From IMG/VR virus record IMGVR_UViG_2698536480_000008: a stretch of 15,191 nucleotides of DNA, one strand, 5' to 3'. A program made the position numbers and the translations under genes. How positions within the stretch are numbered: position 1 is the first letter of the stretch; each line of letters starts with the position of its first letter. This DNA comes from a virus. Lineage: Duplodnaviria > Heunggongvirae > Uroviricota > Caudoviricetes. Positions 1 to 13,660 of the stretch are shown here, piece by piece. The notes under the pieces are model-generated. The model saw nothing but the letters and a program-made list of their open reading frames with translations. It did not search any database and was not told where the DNA came from.

Positions 1-156
1 TTACTCCCCAAGTTCGTAAGCTGTGAAGACAGCGACCTCCGTCTGGTCGGTTCGGATTCGTACCTCGCAGAGGTCTTTCCTCGTTACCAGTACCGTCACT
101 ATAACGGTTAAACAGATGACGATCAGGGCGACTAACATCGCCTTTTGCTGCTTCAT
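1..156 (-). CDS. hok: Hok/Gef-family type I toxin, 51 aa (HokD/HokC-like); an in-frame upstream extension to 213 gives a 70-aa mok-like ORF
   Basis: Minus-strand ORF ending at the TAA at 3..1. Translation from the internal ATG (156..154) is MKQQKAMLVALIVICLTVIVTVLVTRKDLCEVRIRTDQTEVAVFTAYELGE: a single transmembrane helix plus the conserved RKDLCEV.R motif of Hok/Gef toxins, very close to HokD/RelF as I remember it. Paralogue assignment is uncertain. Confidence 0.75.
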   Translation of the reverse strand: MKQQKAMLVALIVICLTVIVTVLVTRKDLCEVRIRTDQTEVAVFTAYELGE

Positions 157-415
157 AGCCTGCTTCTCCTTGCCTTTCGGCACGTAAGAGGCTAACCTAC
201 ATGTGCAAAGCATGAAATTGGCCTCAGATTAATGTTAAGCGTCTTGCCGGATGCGTAATGTTAACTGGGGCTTTTCTCTATCTGCCTTTGATGTTCATGC
301 CCGAGGCAGATAGCCTCAAGTATCCGCAGCTATTTGTCTGCTGTTACCACCTACCTGCGCCAATCACTGACTCTACAAAGATCTATCCGCGATAACATTT
401 TGAGTTTAAGAACTT

Positions 416-485: not shown

Positions 486-1544
486 ATGAGTTTCCTTTCT
501 GAACAAGACGTACAAAATTTAGTCATTAATAAAATGATCTTTCACGTTGTAGGTAAGAATCTTGAAGCACCGACACTTCTCAAAGAAATAAAACCAGTTC
601 AGCATGTGGATTTTTTTCTTGAACGTATCAAATCTTCACTGAAAGGAAATCTTTTCACTTTTCTGGAGAATTCAAATACCGAAAGAATCCTGCGTATCAT
701 TAGAGATAAAGCAGATGCTGAAGCTAATTGTTTTACAGAACAATCGAAGCTACTGGCCAGTGATTTTCAGTCACACCATTCTAGCGGTAACACGAGTATG
801 GGATGCTTTTTCTTATTTGAATTGGTTTCAGATAAGGAAAAATTCTATGCAATTATAAAATACGATAATGAAGATGTGGTTCGTTATGTTCTTGACGAAA
901 AGTTATCTGAAGAACAAATGCCTACTTTAGAAAGATTTCATGAAACTTTCGTAAAAAAAGCTGAGGCAATGCAAAAAATAGCGTTAATTCAACTTGATCC
1001 AAGTGGGAAAGGCGGGAAAGTTATTGTAAAAGACAGGAGTAAAAGAACCAATATTTCAGGATATTTTAAAGGCTTCTTAAATGTTAAAAGAGTCAACTCT
1101 GAAATTGAACTTTGCAATAAGCTTATTGATGCGCTGAAAATAACCTTCAAAAGGCATAAAGAATTATTGCCAGAGTCAATTCAAAAAAGCGGCGTAAATA
1201 AAATATATGAAGTTTTAAGCAGAGCTGATTTCGAATATAATCCTGAAGATGCTTCTCCGTTATTGACCAGCATTTTTGGGCCGTTAGATGAAAAATCACC
1301 AATTCTCAACACATTCAAAACTCAAACAAAAAATGCTGGTATTGAAGGCGAATCCTTTACTATAAAAGCAGATGGCATTCATAAACCACCAAGACGAAAA
1401 ATTGAAACTGCAGAAAGTGTAGTAATTAGTTATAATGAAGATGACCGTCCAGAAATAAGAAACTTAGATGATGGGCGAAAACAAATTATTGTTACTACTG
1501 CGAGGATTATTACTGATGACATCGATACTTCAAAAAATCGATGA
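486..1544 (+). CDS. Hypothetical soluble protein, 352 aa; possible distant NA37/NdpA(YejK)-like nucleoid-associated DNA-binding fold; first gene of the candidate cargo operon
   Basis: ATG at 486 preceded by GGAG (477-480); uninterrupted 352 codons in ~35% GC DNA; no hydrophobic segments. Local resemblance to YejK as remembered (GCFFLFELV vs GGFVLFCHY; GYFKGFL vs DFFMDFL; N-terminal I.H.. pattern). The 3' end overlaps ORF2 by 29 nt. Confidence 0.7.
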   Translation: MSFLSEQDVQNLVINKMIFHVVGKNLEAPTLLKEIKPVQHVDFFLERIKSSLKGNLFTFLENSNTERILRIIRDKADAEANCFTEQSKLLASDFQSHHSSGNTSMGCFFLFELVSDKEKFYAIIKYDNEDVVRYVLDEKLSEEQMPTLERFHETFVKKAEAMQKIALIQLDPSGKGGKVIVKDRSKRTNISGYFKGFLNVKRVNSEIELCNKLIDALKITFKRHKELLPESIQKSGVNKIYEVLSRADFEYNPEDASPLLTSIFGPLDEKSPILNTFKTQTKNAGIEGESFTIKADGIHKPPRRKIETAESVVISYNEDDRPEIRNLDDGRKQIIVTTARIITDDIDTSKNR

Positions 1545-2949
1545 GTCTATACAGGCGTCAAGGAAAGACCCTGAATTTTTGGCATCAGAATCAATAAAAA
1601 ATGATTCTGCGCGCGTTCTAATTTCTGCCAAAATGGACAAAGATGCACTCATTCTTTGGCAGTACGTTTACGAAAACGTACCAAATTGGATTGAAATTAC
1701 TGTTAAAGATGACTGTAATGATGAAGTAAAACCATCGTCATGCAGTGAAGGTGATAAACTTAACATTACGCTAAAATGCATTGCATTCGAAAATAACAGG
1801 TATATTTTTACGCTCGAAGGGTGGAATGTTTTTCTACACAATGATGATTTAGTATCAATAACCAATAAAGTGAATATTCTCGGTTTGAAACATGGATTTG
1901 AAACTTTAGGATATTCTGTTGAGCCATGGAACCATGCTCCAGAAAAAATTGAACCTAATGAAACCGTACGAACTTCAATCAATTTACAGAGCTACGTTAA
2001 ATTCTATTCTAGTGAGTTCATGCCTGCATCTGATATAGCTCCTTGGGTACTTTATAAAATGCCTGAGGCAGAGGACAACTTTTTCAAAAAATGGTTACAA
2101 GTTTCCTGCAATATGCTTTGTCGCACTCTCGTTAATGAATTATTAGCAGATGAAAAGAAATCAATTTGTTTAACTGGAAAGCCACCAAAAAAATTAATTT
2201 ATGGAGATCCAGACATTCTGCTTTCCGACTATTCAGTTTTACAAACTGTAATAAACTGGATCTTTATTGAGGGCAATGAGATTGAACTCAAACATACTTT
2301 CTTCACAAGTGAGTTAGCACGAGAATGGCCAGAGTATGTATCCTTCTGTGAGGGTTTACCAAAAAAACTCCCTATGGCCTTTGAGTCAGCAAAATTACTA
2401 TATAAGGCCCACATTCGCGCTAGCAGCAGAGAGACTATTAAATCTCTGTCCGATCTAAGGAAAACCTTAGCTGAAGACACGCAAAAAATAATAAGTCAGT
2501 CTAAAGACATCACATCCGCTCTTTGGAAAGATCTGGCTCTGGTTATAAGTCTATTTGCAATAAAATATGCGCTAGACGCATCAAAGATTAATATAACCAA
2601 TAACATATTCCCATATATGTTCTTCGCGTTATCTATATATATTTTTATATCTCAGGTTACAACTCTCTTCATAAATAAAAATTACTTTAAGATACTTGAT
2701 AATACTAGGCTAGTCTGGAGAGATAAACTATATGGTTTTCTTGATGATACTGACTATGAGAATCTTGCAGTCACACCATTAAGAGAGGCATACAAAGCTT
2801 ATCAGATTATAGCCACATTCGTTGTGATTCTGACTTTGCTGATTTCATTTATAATGATCATATTAGGATTCTCAATGCTTGATGAACATGCTACGAATGC
2901 AATTACCTCTTGGCTCAGTTCTCACTTAATCAATAGTTACTGTAGTTAA
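1516..2949 (+). CDS. Hypothetical membrane protein, 477 aa: ~360-aa N-terminal soluble domain plus two to three C-terminal transmembrane helices; candidate effector
   Basis: ATG at 1516 with GAGGA (1502-1506) 9 nt upstream, overlapping the ORF1 stop (translational coupling). The six-frame track begins at 1468 but that start has no ribosome-binding site. Strongly hydrophobic segments NIFPYMFFALSIYIFISQVTTLFI and YQIIATFVVILTLLISFIMIILGFSML, plus a weaker LALVISLFAIKYAL. No recognisable catalytic motif. Confidence 0.7.
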   Translation: MTSILQKIDESIQASRKDPEFLASESIKNDSARVLISAKMDKDALILWQYVYENVPNWIEITVKDDCNDEVKPSSCSEGDKLNITLKCIAFENNRYIFTLEGWNVFLHNDDLVSITNKVNILGLKHGFETLGYSVEPWNHAPEKIEPNETVRTSINLQSYVKFYSSEFMPASDIAPWVLYKMPEAEDNFFKKWLQVSCNMLCRTLVNELLADEKKSICLTGKPPKKLIYGDPDILLSDYSVLQTVINWIFIEGNEIELKHTFFTSELAREWPEYVSFCEGLPKKLPMAFESAKLLYKAHIRASSRETIKSLSDLRKTLAEDTQKIISQSKDITSALWKDLALVISLFAIKYALDASKINITNNIFPYMFFALSIYIFISQVTTLFINKNYFKILDNTRLVWRDKLYGFLDDTDYENLAVTPLREAYKAYQIIATFVVILTLLISFIMIILGFSMLDEHATNAITSWLSSHLINSYCS

Positions 2950-2976
2950 TTTAAGGCGAGAGAAACTCGCCTTAAA
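2950..2976. terminator. GC-rich stem-loop between the convergent ORF2 and Q-like gene stops; possible bidirectional terminator or RNA-stability hairpin, non-canonical
   Basis: tttAAGGCGAG-agaaa-CTCGCCTTaaa: an 8-11 bp perfect stem with a 5-nt loop, flanked by T3 upstream and A6 downstream on the plus strand. Neither transcript gets a proper U-tract immediately 3' of the stem, so intrinsic termination is uncertain. Confidence 0.35.
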
Positions 2977-9804: not shown

Positions 9805-12405
9805 ATGAGCACAAAACCACTCTTCCTGTTACGGAAAGCGAAAAAATCATCCGGTGAACCTGACGTCGTCCTGTGGGCAAGCAACGATTTTGAATCGACC
9901 TGTGCCACTCTGGACTACCTGATCGTTAAGTCAGGTAAAAAACTGAGCAGCTATTTTAAAGCTGTTGCCACGAATTTTCCTGTCGTTAATGACCTGCCCG
10001 CTGAAGGTGAGATCGATTTTACCTGGAGTGAACGCTATCAACTCAGCAAAGACTCCATGACATGGGAACTAAAACCGGGAGCAGCACCAGACAACGCTCA
10101 CTATCAAGGCAATACCAACGTCAACGGCGAAGACATGACTGAGATTGAGGAGAATATGCTACTCCCAATTTCTGGCCAGGAACTGCCCATTCGTTGGCTT
10201 GCTCAACACGGCAGCGAAAAACCGGTAACGCACGTTTCACGCGACGGACTCCAGGCATTACACATTGCTCGGGCTGAAGAACTACCGGCTGTTACTGCCC
10301 TGGCTGTTTCCCACAAAACCAGCCTGCTCGACCCGCTGGAAATTCGCGAACTCCACAAACTGGTTCGTGACACTGACAAAGTTTTCCCTAATCCTGGTAA
10401 TTCAAACCTGGGACTGATAACTGCTTTTTTCGAAGCATACCTGAACGCTGACTACACCGATCGAGGAGTGCTGACAAAAGAGTGGATGAAGGGTAATCGT
10501 GTTTCACACATCACTCGCACGGCTTCCGGTGCTAATGCTGGCGGCGGAAACCTCACCGATCGCGGCGAAGGTTTCGTACACGATCTGACGTCACTGGCGC
10601 GCGACGTAGCCACTGGCGTACTGGCCCGTTCAATGGATCTGGACATCTATAACCTTCATCCGGCACACGCTAAACGCATTGAGGAAATTATCGCTGAAAA
10701 TAAACCGCCCTTTTCTGTTTTCCGCGACAAATTCATCACCATGCCTGGCGGGCTGGATTATTCCCGCGCCATCGTGGTTGCGTCCGTAAAAGAAGCACCA
10801 ATTGGGATCGAGGTCATCCCCGCGCACGTCACTGAATATCTGAACAAAGTACTGACTGAAACCGATCATGCCAACCCTGATCCGGAAATCGTGGATATTG
10901 CCTGCGGTCGCTCCTCTGCCCCGATGCCGCAGCGAGTAACAGAAGAAGGAAAACAGGATGATGAAGAAAAACCGCAACCATCTGGAACAACGGCAGTTGA
11001 ACAGGGAGAGGCTGAAACAATGGAACCGGACGCAACTGAACATCATCAGGACACGCAGCCGCTGGATGCTCAGTCACAGGTAAATTCTGTTGATGCGAAA
11101 TATCAGGAACTGCGGGCAGAACTCCATGAAGCCCGGAAAAACATTCCATCAAAAAATCCTGTCGATGCCGATAAATTGCTTGCTGCATCACGTGGTGAAT
11201 TTGTTGACGGAATTAGCGACCCGAACGATCCGAAATGGGTAAAGGGGATCCAGACTCGCGATTGTGTGTACCAGAACCAGCCAGAAACGGAAAAAACCAG
11301 CCCAGATATGAATCAACCTGAGCCAGTAGTGCAACAGGAACCGGAAATAGCCTGCAATGCCTGCGGCCAGACTGGCGGGGATAACTGCCCTGACTGTGGT
11401 GCGGTGATGGGCGACGCAACATACTAGGAAACATTCGATGAAGAGAGTCAGGTTGAAGCTAAGGAAAATGATCCGGAGGAAATGGAAGGCGCTGAACATC
11501 CGCACAATGAGAATGCTGGCAGCGATCCGCATCGCGATTGCAGTGATGAAACTGGCGAAGTCGCAGATCCCGTAATCGTAGAAGACATAGAGCCAGGTAT
11601 TTATTACGGAATTTCGAATGAGAATTACCACGCGGGTCCCGGTATCAGTAAGTCTCAGCTCGATGACATTGCTGATACTCCGGCACTATATTTGTGGCGT
11701 AAAAATGCCCCTGTGGACACCACAAAGACAAAAACGCTCGATTTAGGAACTGCTTTCCACTGCCGGGTACTTGAACCGGAAGAATTCAGTAACCGCTTTA
11801 TCGTAGCACCTGAATTTAACCGCCGTACAAACGCCGGAAAAGAAGAAGAGAAAGCGTTTCTGATGGAATGCGCAAGCACAGGAAAAACGGTTATCACTGC
11901 GGAAGAAGGCCGGAAAATTGAACTCATGTATCAAAGCGTTATGGCTTTGCCGCTGGGGCAATGGCTTGTTGAAAGCGCCGGACACGCTGAATCATCAATT
12001 TACTGGGAAGATCCTGAAACAGGAATTTTGTGTCGGTGCCGTCCGGACAAAATTATCCCTGAATTTCACTGGATCATGGACGTGAAAACTACGGCGGATA
12101 TTCAACGATTCAAAACCGCTTATTACGACTACCGCTATCACGTTCAGGATGCATTCTACAGTGACGGTTATGAAGCACAGTTTGGAGTGCAGCCAACTTT
12201 CGTTTTTCTGGTTGCCAGCACAACTATTGAATGCGGACGTTATCCGGTTGAAATTTTCATGATGGGCGAAGAAGCAAAACTGGCAGGTCAACAGGAATAT
12301 CACCGCAATCTGCGAACCCTGTCTGACTGCCTGAATACCGATGAATGGCCAGCTATTAAGACATTATCACTGCCCCGCTGGGCTAAGGAATATGCAAATG
12401 ACTAA
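9805..12405 (+). pseudogene. recE: recE (exonuclease VIII) interrupted by an in-frame amber codon at codon 541 (TAG 11425-11427); otherwise a full-length 866-codon frame
   Basis: The 540-aa ORF (9805-11427) and the 307-aa ORF (11482-12405) are in the same frame, separated only by the TAG and 18 sense codons ([18 protein letters not shown]); 540+1+18+307 = 866, the RecE length. The downstream part holds the RecE nuclease domain and ends in ATGACTAA, overlapping the recT start. Confidence 0.85.
11482..12405 (+). CDS. recE: Possible C-terminal RecE fragment (307 aa, complete exonuclease domain) if translation reinitiates or the amber is suppressed
   Basis: In-frame ATG at 11482, but GGAGGA sits only 1 nt upstream, so initiation is doubtful. 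The fragment covers the C-terminal region known to suffice for RecE nuclease activity. Confidence 0.3.
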
Positions 12406-13263: not shown

Positions 13264-13458
13264 ATGAGATATGACAATGTTAAACCATGTCCATTTTGTG
13301 GTTGTCCATCAGTAACGGTGAAAGCCATTTCAGGATATTACCGAGCGAAGTGTAACGGATGCGAATCCCGAACCGGTTATGGTGGAAGTGAAAAAGAAGC
13401 ACTCGAAAGATGGAATAAACGAACCACTGGAAATAATAATGGAGGTGTTCATGTATAA
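13264..13458 (+). CDS. ralR: RalR (Lar) restriction-alleviation protein / type I toxin DNase, 64 aa
   Basis: MRYDNVKPCPFCGCPSVTVKAISGYYRAKCNGCESRTGYGGSEKEALERWNKRTTGNNNGGVHV from the ATG at 13264; Cys4 zinc-ribbon pattern; located between recT and ydaC. Confidence 0.8.
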   Translation: MRYDNVKPCPFCGCPSVTVKAISGYYRAKCNGCESRTGYGGSEKEALERWNKRTTGNNNGGVHV

Positions 13459-13660
13459 AATTACCGCCACTATTGAAAAGGAAGGTGGCACTCCTACTAA
13501 CTGGACAAGATATTCAAAATCTAAACTAACGAAATCAGAATGCGAAAAAATGCTCTCAGGTAAAAAAGAAGCAGGCGTTTCCAGAGAGCAGAAAGTAAAA
13601 CTGATAAATTTTAATTGCGCGAAACTTCAGTCCTCGAGAATTGCATTGTATTCAAATTAA
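13451..13660 (+). CDS. ydaC: Rac prophage protein YdaC, 69 aa
   Basis: ATG at 13451 with a GGAGGT ribosome-binding site (13441-13446), overlapping the ralR 3' end by 8 nt; MYKITATIEKEGGTPTNWTRYSKSKLTKSECEKMLSGKKEAGVSREQKVKLINFNCAKLQSSRIALYSN. Confidence 0.75.
   Translation: MYKITATIEKEGGTPTNWTRYSKSKLTKSECEKMLSGKKEAGVSREQKVKLINFNCAKLQSSRIALYSN

What the first reader, a model, noticed from the sequence alone, without database searches (positions are those of the whole stretch)
1..400. hok/mok type I toxin locus at the window edge, adjacent to the cargo operon
A Hok-family toxin (51 aa) with an in-frame 70-codon upstream extension (mok-like, ATG at 213) lies on the minus strand. By the known organisation of hok/sok loci, a short antisense Sok RNA should be encoded on the plus strand across the mok start (roughly 195-280). 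A possible plus-strand promoter is TTGCCT (170-175), 17-nt spacer, TAACCT (193-198). I could not delimit Sok or its terminator. Hok/Sok loci can themselves exclude phage, so this toxin beside the new operon is consistent with a small defence island.
Basis: partly seen in the sequence, partly recalled or inferred. Interest (0 to 1): 0.45.

Follow-up and report, generated by a model that had tools for sequence, protein, structure and literature searches.

The report
Prophage hok/sok toxin locus, toxin side damaged
This is an ordinary, already known kind of small toxin/antisense-RNA cassette (hok/mok/sok, closest to hokW-sokW of Shiga-toxin phages) in a Rac-like E. coli prophage; its antitoxin RNA gene looks intact, but its toxin promoter and mRNA 5' end carry changes that probably weaken or silence the toxin.

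Summary
Window 1-156 (-) encodes a 51-aa Hok toxin (Pfam HOK_GEF, 2.6e-21; PHROG "MokW-like", 3e-30). Positions 1-213 (-) are the in-frame 70-codon mok frame. Positions 151-325 (-) match the Rfam hok-leader model (99 bits against a cut-off of 59).

Positions 1-334 are 92-96% identical to phage hok loci, including the tested hokW-sokW of 933W/Sp5. Annotated sokW and K-12 sokC both map to a plus-strand RNA starting at 205 and ending at 275-281.

The toxin side is abnormal:
- The hok -10 box is ACAAAT where 72 of 74 phage relatives have TAnnnT.
- The mRNA 5' (tac) element is GGAUAC instead of GGGUGC, with no compensating change.
- In plasmid R1, equivalent single changes abolish hok transcription or translation.

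This allele occurs only with the neighbouring two-gene operon: 29 of 5,426 complete E. coli genomes, 4 viral contigs, and none of the species-representative genomes.

Verdict: a known hok/sok locus with Sok intact and hok probably attenuated. The hok cassette is a common part of this phage region next to a variable slot, and I found no evidence that it defends against phage. Interest is low.

The parts
1..156 (-). hok coding sequence (51 aa plus the stop codon at 1-3)
   Evidence: ORF list. Pfam HOK_GEF 2.6e-21. PHROG 251 3.4e-30. RefSeq calls the identical gene WP_197731663.1 'Hok/Gef family protein'. No residue is unique to this allele among the relatives.
1..213 (-). mok reading frame: 70 codons in frame with hok, 19 of them upstream of the hok ATG
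   Evidence: ORF list. It maps exactly onto mokW of 933W and mokC of K-12.
151..325 (-). hok mRNA leader, from the inferred +1 at 325 to the hok start; contains tac, ucb, the Sok target, and the mok and hok ribosome-binding sites
   Evidence: Rfam RF01794 full-length match, 99.4 bits. The model matches the hok strand in every locus tested, K-12 included. The +1 is inferred from alignment to the R1 hok mRNA 5' end.
314..325 (-). tac element, GGAUACUUGAGG; positions 3 and 5 are A where relatives have G
   Evidence: Tabulation: 67 of 74 relatives have GGGTGC and none has GGATAC. cmscan flags the non-canonical pairs. The 5'-domain energy is -18 to -19 kcal/mol, against -26 to -29.5 in relatives.
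267..273 (-). AAGCCCC, the partner of tac in the tac stem (ucb/anti-SD side); unchanged, so the tac changes are uncompensated
   Evidence: Rfam consensus structure and alignment; constrained folds.
222..225 (-). GAGG, the likely mok Shine-Dalgarno, 8 nt before the mok ATG; lies inside the Sok-complementary stretch
   Evidence: Read from the sequence. Predicted paired in the full-length fold.
170..198 (+). Sok promoter: TTGCCT (170-175), 17 nt, TAACCT (193-198)
   Evidence: Identical in 933W, HannyBb and pSTEC1024_3, and in 51 of the 77 IMG/VR loci that could be read there. Best plus-strand site in my PWM scan. The generic consensus scan missed it at 8 of 12 matches.
205..279 (+). Sok antisense RNA: 5' end at 205, 3' end between 275 and 281, so about 71-77 nt
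   Evidence: Maps from the annotated sokW (71 nt) and sokC. Folds as a 5' single-stranded tail plus a long hairpin, z -3.85. The consensus structure over 16 Sok sequences keeps the hairpin. Expression was not tested.
220..275 (+). Sok terminator hairpin (220-271) followed by UUUU (272-275)
   Evidence: Folds. It carries an 18-nt apical extension relative to K-12 sokC; the aligned R1 Sok is shorter there too.
332..363 (-). degenerate hok promoter: ACAAAT at -12..-7 (337..332) and TTGGCG (363..358) 20 nt upstream
   Evidence: Relatives have TAGAAT, TAGTAT, TAAGAT or TATAAT at -12..-7 with a 16-17-nt spacer. The best PWM score within 60 nt upstream is 0.8, against 6-13 in the six loci compared. 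BLAST homology to phage loci stops at 334.

Best explanation
Window 1-~334, plus about 60 nt of 3' UTR beyond the left edge, is a hok/mok/sok type I toxin-antitoxin cassette of the hokW-sokW subgroup. It sits in the nin/Q region of a Rac-like lambdoid prophage of E. coli. The family mechanism comes from plasmid R1 work and is not shown here. A stable hok mRNA is held closed by pairing of its 5' tac element with the 3' fbi element. Slow 3' trimming lets tac pair with ucb instead, which frees the mok ribosome-binding site, and mok translation then drives hok translation. The short-lived Sok RNA pairs with the mok start region and the duplex is cut by RNase III. In this allele the Sok side (promoter, 5' tail, terminator hairpin) and both reading frames are intact. 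The hok side has lineage-specific lesions: the -10 box is ACAAAT (C at -11, A at -12) with a 20-nt spacer, and the tac element has two uncompensated G-to-A changes. I therefore think the toxin is poorly transcribed and poorly activatable. The locus would be an attenuated or silent hok with a still-expressed Sok, comparable in outcome to the inactive K-12 chromosomal copies although not in the kind of lesion. Membership of the family by descent: about 0.97. Attenuation: about 0.55-0.6, inferred.
For: Identity:
- Pfam, PHROG and Rfam hits.
- 92-96% identity to annotated hokW/mokW/sokW and other phage or plasmid loci.
- sokW and sokC map to 205-275/281.
- The Sok fold is conserved.

Prophage context: intR, ralR/RalA, recET, racR, ydaSTUV and a Q-family gene in the window, and lysis and head genes beyond it.

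Lesions:
- In 74 IMG/VR relatives the -12..-7 hexamer is TAnnnT in 72, and the 5' end is GGGTGC in 67. None has ACAAAT or GGATAC.
- The best promoter score upstream of +1 is 0.8, against 6-13 in the six loci compared.
- The 5'-domain tac-stem energy is -17.9 to -19.0 kcal/mol, against -26 to -29.5.
- The tac/fbi closure probability is 0-0.6 at positions 1-6, against about 1.0 in 933W, HannyBb and pSTEC1024_3. L012 and L013, which share this 3' UTR, lose only pair 3. The full-length minimum free energy is -137, against -148 to -159.
- The Rfam score is 99 bits, against 104-120 for close relatives.

Experimental precedent in R1: -10 substitutions A-11C/G, T-12C and T-7C abolish toxicity. Any substitution at G4, C5 or T6 of the mRNA abolishes toxicity, and G4A drastically lowers Hok protein (PMC9841398). 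Window A5 aligns with R1 G4.

Further decay in the same lineage:
- Strain 13E0767 has an extra tac change, C6 to G, and scores 87 bits in Rfam.
- The closest Hok alleles (L008-L010, L014) carry IS186 in the 3' hairpin.
- L011 also has A at tac position 5.
Against: No expression data exist for this allele; every functional statement is by analogy.
- Other minus-strand promoter-like sites exist (-10 TAAACT at 408..403, score 7.4; TAGAGT at 375..370, 6.8; GATACT at 324..319, 5.6). No canonical terminator separates hok from the upstream Q-family gene, so hok could still be transcribed, with a changed 5' end.
- The full-length fold still closes the 5' and 3' ends through UUGAGG/CCUCAA.
- Hok, mok, both ribosome-binding sites and the protective 3' stem-loop are intact.
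- R1 is a distant relative (HokW and Hok are 44% identical, PMC8621323), so single-nucleotide effects may not transfer.
- The 28 genomes with an identical copy of 290-349 give no information on selection.
- The fbi and 3' UTR are outside the window and were read from matching genomes only.
Confidence: 0.6

Rival explanations
1. Fully functional hokW-sokW-like system. hok is transcribed from a weak or alternative promoter, or by phage read-through. The altered tac is tolerated, and Hok is released when Sok disappears on prophage induction (aiding lysis and phage release as in Sp5), on loss of the prophage, or on transcription shut-off by an infecting phage.
For: Coding frames, ribosome-binding sites, the Sok target and the 3' stem-loop are intact. 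The 5'/3' closure is still predicted. Alternative promoter-like sites exist. hokW-sokW at 92% identity is a working TA that raises Sp5 release about two-fold (PMC8621323). R1 hok is toxic from a single chromosomal copy (PMC9841398).
Against: C at -11 and A at -12 of the only conserved promoter position. There are two uncompensated tac mismatches, at or next to positions where every single substitution kills R1 hok. A further tac hit is present in 13E0767. Transcripts from the alternative promoters would carry 38-71 extra 5' nucleotides or would lack tac.
Confidence: 0.3
2. hok/sok is a working partner of the neighbouring two-gene operon in a small defence island. For example, Hok would be a second effector, or hok/sok and the operon would be co-regulated from the shared 160-bp divergent region.
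For: There is strict co-occurrence. This hok allele is found only with the operon: 29 of 5,426 E. coli genomes and 4 of 4 IMG/VR contigs, with none in the species-representative genomes. The operon has the architecture of type II PANGU defence systems. R1 hok/sok on a high-copy plasmid modestly reduces T4 plating (as cited in PMC8621323).
Against: The co-occurrence is equally explained by one recent recombinant prophage lineage, since the copies are nearly identical. hok cassettes sit next to 26 unrelated upstream contexts. No PADLOC model matches Hok. The toxin side looks damaged. The published PANGU systems are described as two-gene operons that were tested as such in E. coli.
Confidence: 0.05

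Closest known systems
hokW-mokW-sokW of Stx2 phages 933W and Sp5 (VT2-Sakai)
   Same: 92% DNA identity over window 1-334. The layout is the same: a 51-aa Hok, an in-frame 70-codon mok, and a plus-strand Sok starting 8 nt inside mok. The Sok promoter hexamers and terminator hairpin are identical. Both lie in lambdoid prophages. This relative is experimentally a type I TA (PMC8621323).
   Different: The window has ACAAAT instead of TAGAAT at the hok -10, GGAUAC instead of GGGUGC at the mRNA 5' end, and GCAGCC instead of GCACCC in fbi (read from matching genomes). The Sok 5' tail differs (GCAAAGCAUGAAAUUGG against GUUCAGCAUGGAUUGAG), and there are 8 amino-acid differences in Hok.
hok/sok (parB) of plasmid R1
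   Same: It has the same set of elements in the same order: promoter, tac, ucb, Sok target with the mok start, hok, 3' stem-loop, fbi. The same Rfam leader model matches it at 88.9 bits. The mechanism is taken from this system (PMC9841398).
   Different: Only distant sequence similarity (HokW and R1 Hok are 44% identical, PMC8621323). The aligned R1 Sok is 64 nt, against about 71-77 nt here. It is plasmid-borne and has a working -10 box, TATGAT.
Chromosomal hok loci of E. coli K-12 (hokC/mokC/sokC; hokD in the Qin prophage)
   Same: Same subfamily: HokD differs from the window Hok at 5 residues, mokC is in frame, and sokC maps to window 205-281. They are the standard examples of hok loci that are not functional TA systems (my own knowledge of Pedersen & Gerdes 1999; not read here).
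   Different: The K-12 lesions are structural. In the record, IS186 ends 19 nt after the hokC stop, and hokD lacks the whole leader and Sok region and follows relBE. Here the lesions are point changes in the -10 box and tac, and the 3' UTR hairpin that IS186 targets is intact.

Membership tests
hok/sok type I toxin-antitoxin family (membership by descent) | Small (~50 aa) hydrophobic Hok/Gef toxin | tested here: met
   Pfam PF01848 75.4 bits against a cut-off of 22. PHROG 251 E 3.4e-30. The NCBIfam Hok and HokA models match below their cut-offs.
hok/sok type I toxin-antitoxin family (membership by descent) | Overlapping mok leader frame that starts upstream of hok | tested here: met
   The 70-codon ORF at 1-213 (-) is co-linear with the annotated mokW and mokC.
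hok/sok type I toxin-antitoxin family (membership by descent) | Conserved hok mRNA leader sequence and structure | tested here: met
   Rfam RF01794, full-length match at 151-325 (-), 99.4 bits against a cut-off of 59.
hok/sok type I toxin-antitoxin family (membership by descent) | Cis-antisense Sok gene across the mok start, with its own promoter and terminator | tested here: met
   Promoter at 170-198, start at 205, hairpin at 220-271 plus a U-run. It maps from the annotated sokW and sokC. This is sequence-level evidence only; the transcript was not observed.
Functionally intact hok/sok system | hok promoter with a TAnnnT -10 box 6 nt before +1 | tested here: not met
   ACAAAT at 337..332. 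72 of 74 relatives have TAnnnT. PWM score 0.8 against 6-13. In R1, A-11C/G and T-12C abolish function.
Functionally intact hok/sok system | tac element able to form the tac stem with ucb in the trimmed mRNA | tested here: inconclusive
   5 of 7 pairs remain, with A3xC and A5xC mismatches. The 5'-domain fold is 8-10 kcal/mol weaker than in relatives. The functional threshold for this subgroup is unknown.
Functionally intact hok/sok system | tac-fbi long-range pairing that closes the full-length mRNA | tested here: inconclusive
   fbi is outside the window. In S42, 13E0767 and L089 it reads CCTCAACGCAGCC. UUGAGG/CCUCAA pairs with probability 0.8-0.96 (0.29 for the outermost G12-C pair), and the terminal six positions with 0-0.6.
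Functionally intact hok/sok system | [quoted passage not shown] | tested here: met
   GCGGGGAGAAATCCCCGC is intact in the matching genomes, which lie outside the window. The requirement is known from R1.
Functionally intact hok/sok system | Toxicity of Hok and neutralisation by Sok | not testable with these tools
   Needs genetics. This has been shown for hokW-sokW only (PMC8621323).
Type II PANGU defence system (considered for the neighbouring operon, because of the 'defence island' claim) | YejK-like nucleoid-associated protein encoded with a partner that has a C-terminal transmembrane domain | tested here: met
   Gene 1 matches Pfam NA37 at 1.2e-12. Gene 2 has hydrophobic segments near residues 368 and 425-457. 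The architecture is as described in bioRxiv 10.64898/2026.04.06.716658.
Type II PANGU defence system (considered for the neighbouring operon, because of the 'defence island' claim) | Sequence or fold homology to Pag2A/Pag2B (acidic DNA-mimic domain) and anti-phage activity | not tested
The N-terminal 330 aa have 48 D+E against 39 K+R, which is only mildly acidic. PADLOC v2 gives no hit.

The most novel reading that the evidence does not exclude
The damaged hok leader and the neighbouring PANGU-like operon always travel together (29 of 29 genomes, 4 of 4 viral contigs, nowhere else). This could reflect re-wiring rather than decay. One version: hok is now transcribed with a new 5' end from the shared divergent control region, so that Hok release is tied to the operon's regulation. 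Another version: the locus is kept as a Sok-only module, which neutralises incoming phages or plasmids whose hok has the same Sok-recognition sequence (for example pSTEC1024_3 or L075) and whose read-through enters the operon.
Probability: 0.05. Interest if true: 0.5.

Novelty: already known. Interest (0 to 1): 0.15.

Why it matters
It matters little beyond correct annotation. hok/mok/sok cassettes are common in lambdoid prophages, one close relative (hokW-sokW) has been characterised, and RefSeq already names this gene. Two things are useful for the wider scan. First, the hok locus should not be counted as evidence that the neighbouring operon lies in a defence island. Second, this allele is a natural example of point-mutation decay at the positions (-11/-12 of the promoter and tac) that deep mutagenesis of R1 hok identified as essential. 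If the attenuation were confirmed, it would add a small data point on how type I toxins are silenced while their antisense RNA persists.

Tried and rejected
- The generic promoter/terminator scan of 1-520 found nothing. Its thresholds exclude the conserved Sok promoter (8 of 12 matches) and long-loop hairpins, so I used my own PWM scan (approximate matrix) and folding instead.
- Thermodynamic prediction of the trimmed mRNA was not robust. For most relatives it gave the known metastable 5' hairpin rather than the tac stem, so I compared the isolated 5' domain and draw no conclusion from whole-molecule folds of the trimmed form.
- Covariation adds little to the Sok hairpin: only 2 of 20 pairs show compensatory changes, because the phage-type loci are too similar.
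- I searched for the GGATAC variant elsewhere, in case it marked a separate natural hok lineage. There were no hits in 185,579 representative genomes with two patterns, and the only viral-contig hits were the 4 that carry the operon.
- No complete E. coli genome matches the whole window without a gap. The best hits are 99.9% identical in two pieces, so the 3' UTR had to be read from S42, 13E0767 and L089.
- The plus-strand ORFs in 1-500 (54, 45 and 51 aa) have no support and overlap conserved RNA elements. I treat them as chance.
- PADLOC and NCBIfam gave nothing decisive for Hok or the operon.
- I considered that 335-375 is a diverged remnant of the HannyBb-type promoter region (shared ATTGGCG...AGGTA). 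The similarity is too short to separate this from a recombination junction.

Full report
**What is there**

The minus strand of window 1-213 holds a 70-codon ORF. Its internal ATG at 156 gives a 51-aa hydrophobic peptide, and the stop codon is the first three bases of the window.
- The peptide matches Pfam HOK_GEF (75.4 bits, cut-off 22, E 2.6e-21) and PHROG 251 "MokW-like host killing" (E 3.4e-30).
- Rfam RF01794 matches 151-325 over its full length (99.4 bits, cut-off 59).
- That Rfam match is on the minus strand. The same is true in every locus I tested, including K-12, where sokC is annotated on the opposite strand. The Rfam "sok" model therefore describes the hok mRNA leader, and Sok is the reverse complement of part of it.

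**Source and context**

The window is the left arm of a Rac-like prophage of E. coli inserted next to ttcA.
- It contains intR, xisR, ralR with its RalA RNA (Rfam, 223 bits), recT/recE, kilR, sieB, racR, ydaSTUV and a Q-family antiterminator. A divergent two-gene operon follows, and then hok.
- DUF1367/1364/1133 genes, lysis genes and head genes lie beyond the left edge.
- Positions 1-480 are 100% identical in 29 complete E. coli genomes.
- Positions 1-334 are 92-96% identical to hok loci of many phages and some plasmids. These include 933W and VT2-Sakai, whose records annotate hokW, mokW and a 71-nt sokW.

**Delimiting Sok**

The annotated sokW maps to window 205-275, and the annotated K-12 sokC maps to 205-281.
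- The start at G205 lies 7 nt after TAACCT (193-198), which sits 17 nt after TTGCCT (170-175).
- The hexamers are identical in 933W, HannyBb and pSTEC1024_3, and in 51 of the 77 IMG/VR loci that could be read there. The rest mostly have the variant TTGACC with CAATCT or TAATCT.
- It is the best plus-strand site in my approximate PWM scan. The generic scan misses it at 8 of 12 matches.
- The RNA folds as a single-stranded 5' tail of about 15 nt, a long hairpin at 220-271 and UUUU(CUCU). The z-score is -3.85 against shuffles.
- Sixteen Sok sequences, including sokC and R1 Sok, share this shape, although with little covariation.
- The 5' tail is the most variable part among loci. It covers the mok start codon (211-213) and reaches the likely mok Shine-Dalgarno (222-225).

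**The toxin side is not like its relatives**

I compared 933W, HannyBb, pSTEC1024_3, K-12 hokC and hokD, an R1-type plasmid locus and 80 IMG/VR loci.
- Promoter. Of the 74 IMG/VR loci that have a leader, 72 carry a TAnnnT hexamer (56 of them TAGAAT) exactly 6 nt before the mRNA start, with a -35-like TTGCGG or TTGGCG 16-17 nt upstream. The window has ACAAAT (337..332) with TTGGCG 20 nt upstream.
- Promoter score. The best PWM score within 60 nt of +1 is 0.8, against 6-13 in the six loci compared. BLAST homology to the phage loci ends at 334, inside this hexamer.
- tac element. 67 of 74 relatives begin GGGUGCUUGAGG. The window begins GGAUACUUGAGG, and no relative has that.
- No compensation. 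The partner AAGCCCC (267-273) is unchanged, so two pairs of the tac stem are broken (cmscan flags them). The 5' domain folds at -17.9 to -19.0 kcal/mol, against -26 to -29.5.

**The 3' partner**

The fbi element lies outside the window. In S42, 13E0767 and a metagenomic viral contig that share the window sequence, it reads CCTCAACGCAGCC, 47-59 nt after the hok stop.
- The 390-nt S42 stretch folds with its 5' and 3' ends paired (z -4.97).
- For the 385-nt mRNA ending at fbi, the terminal six positions pair with probability 0-0.6. In 933W, HannyBb and pSTEC1024_3 they pair with probability about 1.0. L012 and L013, which share this 3' UTR, lose only pair 3.
- The fold is 10-20 kcal/mol weaker than in relatives.

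**Why these changes probably matter**

Deep mutagenesis of R1 hok at single copy (PMC9841398) gave three relevant results.
- The -10 substitutions A-11C/G, T-12C and T-7C abolish toxicity, and T-12C abolishes the transcript.
- Every substitution at mRNA positions G4, C5 and T6 abolishes toxicity.
- G4A leaves the mRNA present but drastically lowers Hok protein, which the authors attribute to a destabilised tac stem.

In the alignment, window A5 corresponds to R1 G4, and the window has C at -11 and A at -12. This is an inference by analogy across a distant relative, not a measurement.

**Signs of decay in the same lineage**

- 13E0767 has a further tac change, C6 to G, and a lower Rfam score (87 bits).
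- The nearest Hok alleles (L008-L010, L014) carry an IS186 end inside the 3' hairpin, at the same site as K-12 hokC.
- L011 also has A at tac position 5.
- By contrast, no residue of the window Hok is unique to it, and the 3' stem-loop is intact.

**What keeps the active-toxin rival alive**

- Other minus-strand promoter-like sites exist at 408..403, 375..370 and 324..319.
- There is no canonical terminator between the Q-family gene and the antisense of the operon. The only feature there is a hairpin without a U-tract at 2950-2976.
- The closely related hokW-sokW is a working TA. Its Sok disappears on prophage induction, Hok then reaches the inner membrane, and phage release doubles (PMC8621323).
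- Transcripts from the alternative sites would, however, carry 38-71 extra 5' nucleotides or lack tac.

**The "defence island" idea**

- The hok allele and the operon are strictly linked: 29 of 5,426 genomes, 4 of 4 viral contigs, and none of the 185,579 species-representative genomes. The copies are nearly identical, so one recent recombinant lineage explains this.
- Across 74 phage loci, hok abuts 26 unrelated upstream contexts. hok is a common module next to a variable slot.
- Hok has no PADLOC hit.
- The published phage-exclusion effect of R1 hok/sok is modest and came from a high-copy plasmid (quoted in PMC8621323).

**The neighbouring operon**

The operon encodes a YejK/NA37-like protein plus a protein with C-terminal hydrophobic segments. 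This is the architecture of the type II PANGU abortive-infection systems recently described in a preprint (bioRxiv 10.64898/2026.04.06.716658). I could not compare sequences.

**Verdict**

The locus is a known kind (hokW-sokW type) and is already annotated in RefSeq. The antitoxin side is intact. The toxin side is probably attenuated (about 0.55-0.6). No evidence ties it functionally to the neighbouring operon. Interest is low.

Noticed in passing
window 486-2949 (+), with a likely promoter TTGCGT-17-TATACT at 416-444: This is the two-gene 'cargo' operon. Gene 1 is a YejK/NA37-like nucleoid-associated protein (Pfam 1.2e-12). Gene 2 has no family hit but has C-terminal hydrophobic segments. The architecture matches the type II PANGU abortive-infection systems (Pag2A sensor plus Pag2B membrane effector) of a 2026 preprint. 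The operon is present in only 29-30 of 5,426 complete E. coli genomes, always in this prophage slot.
   Followed up: partly
L008-L010 and L014, just 3' of hok; K-12 L003 1-332: An IS186 end (CATAAGCGCTAACTTAAGGGTTG...) is inserted inside the GGGGAGAAATCCCC hairpin downstream of hok in four viral-contig loci. K-12 hokC has IS186 at the same site. This looks like recurrent insertion into the same GC hairpin, and the hairpin is intact in the window-type prophages.
   Followed up: partly
L088 (E. coli 13E0767), corresponding to window 320 and 202: This otherwise near-identical prophage has a further tac substitution (mRNA C6 to G) and a synonymous change in mok. Its Rfam leader score drops to 87 bits.
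   Followed up: yes
window 13457-13635 (-): RalA antitoxin RNA of the RalR/RalA type I system (Rfam RF02694, 223 bits, full length). This is a second type I TA in the same prophage arm.
   Followed up: no
window 2950-2976: An 11-bp hairpin, TTTAAGGCGAG-AGAAA-CTCGCCTTAAA, lies between the convergent operon gene 2 and the Q-family antiterminator gene. It has no U-tract on either strand, so it is not a canonical terminator in either direction.
   Followed up: no
window 151-325 (-), and L003 502-654 (-): The Rfam family RF01794, named 'sok antitoxin', matches the hok-sense strand in all loci tested, including K-12, where sokC is annotated on the other strand. The model describes the hok leader, not the Sok RNA itself.
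   Followed up: yes
window 205-220 (+), and the equivalent positions in L008-L087: The single-stranded 5' tail of Sok (the mok start region on the other strand) is the most variable stretch among otherwise 90-96% identical loci, with at least ten variants. The window variant GCAAAGCAUGAAAUUGG is shared with pSTEC1024_3, L032, L060, L061 and L075. This is consistent with diversification of Sok-target specificity.
   Followed up: partly
window 9805-12405 compared with NZ_CP020107.1 and S42: The window is about 410-420 bp shorter than the best-matching genomes across the recE region. recE is one 2,601-bp gene in S42, but the window shows ORFs of 540 and 307 aa. This suggests a deletion or disruption of recE in the window's source.
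   Followed up: no
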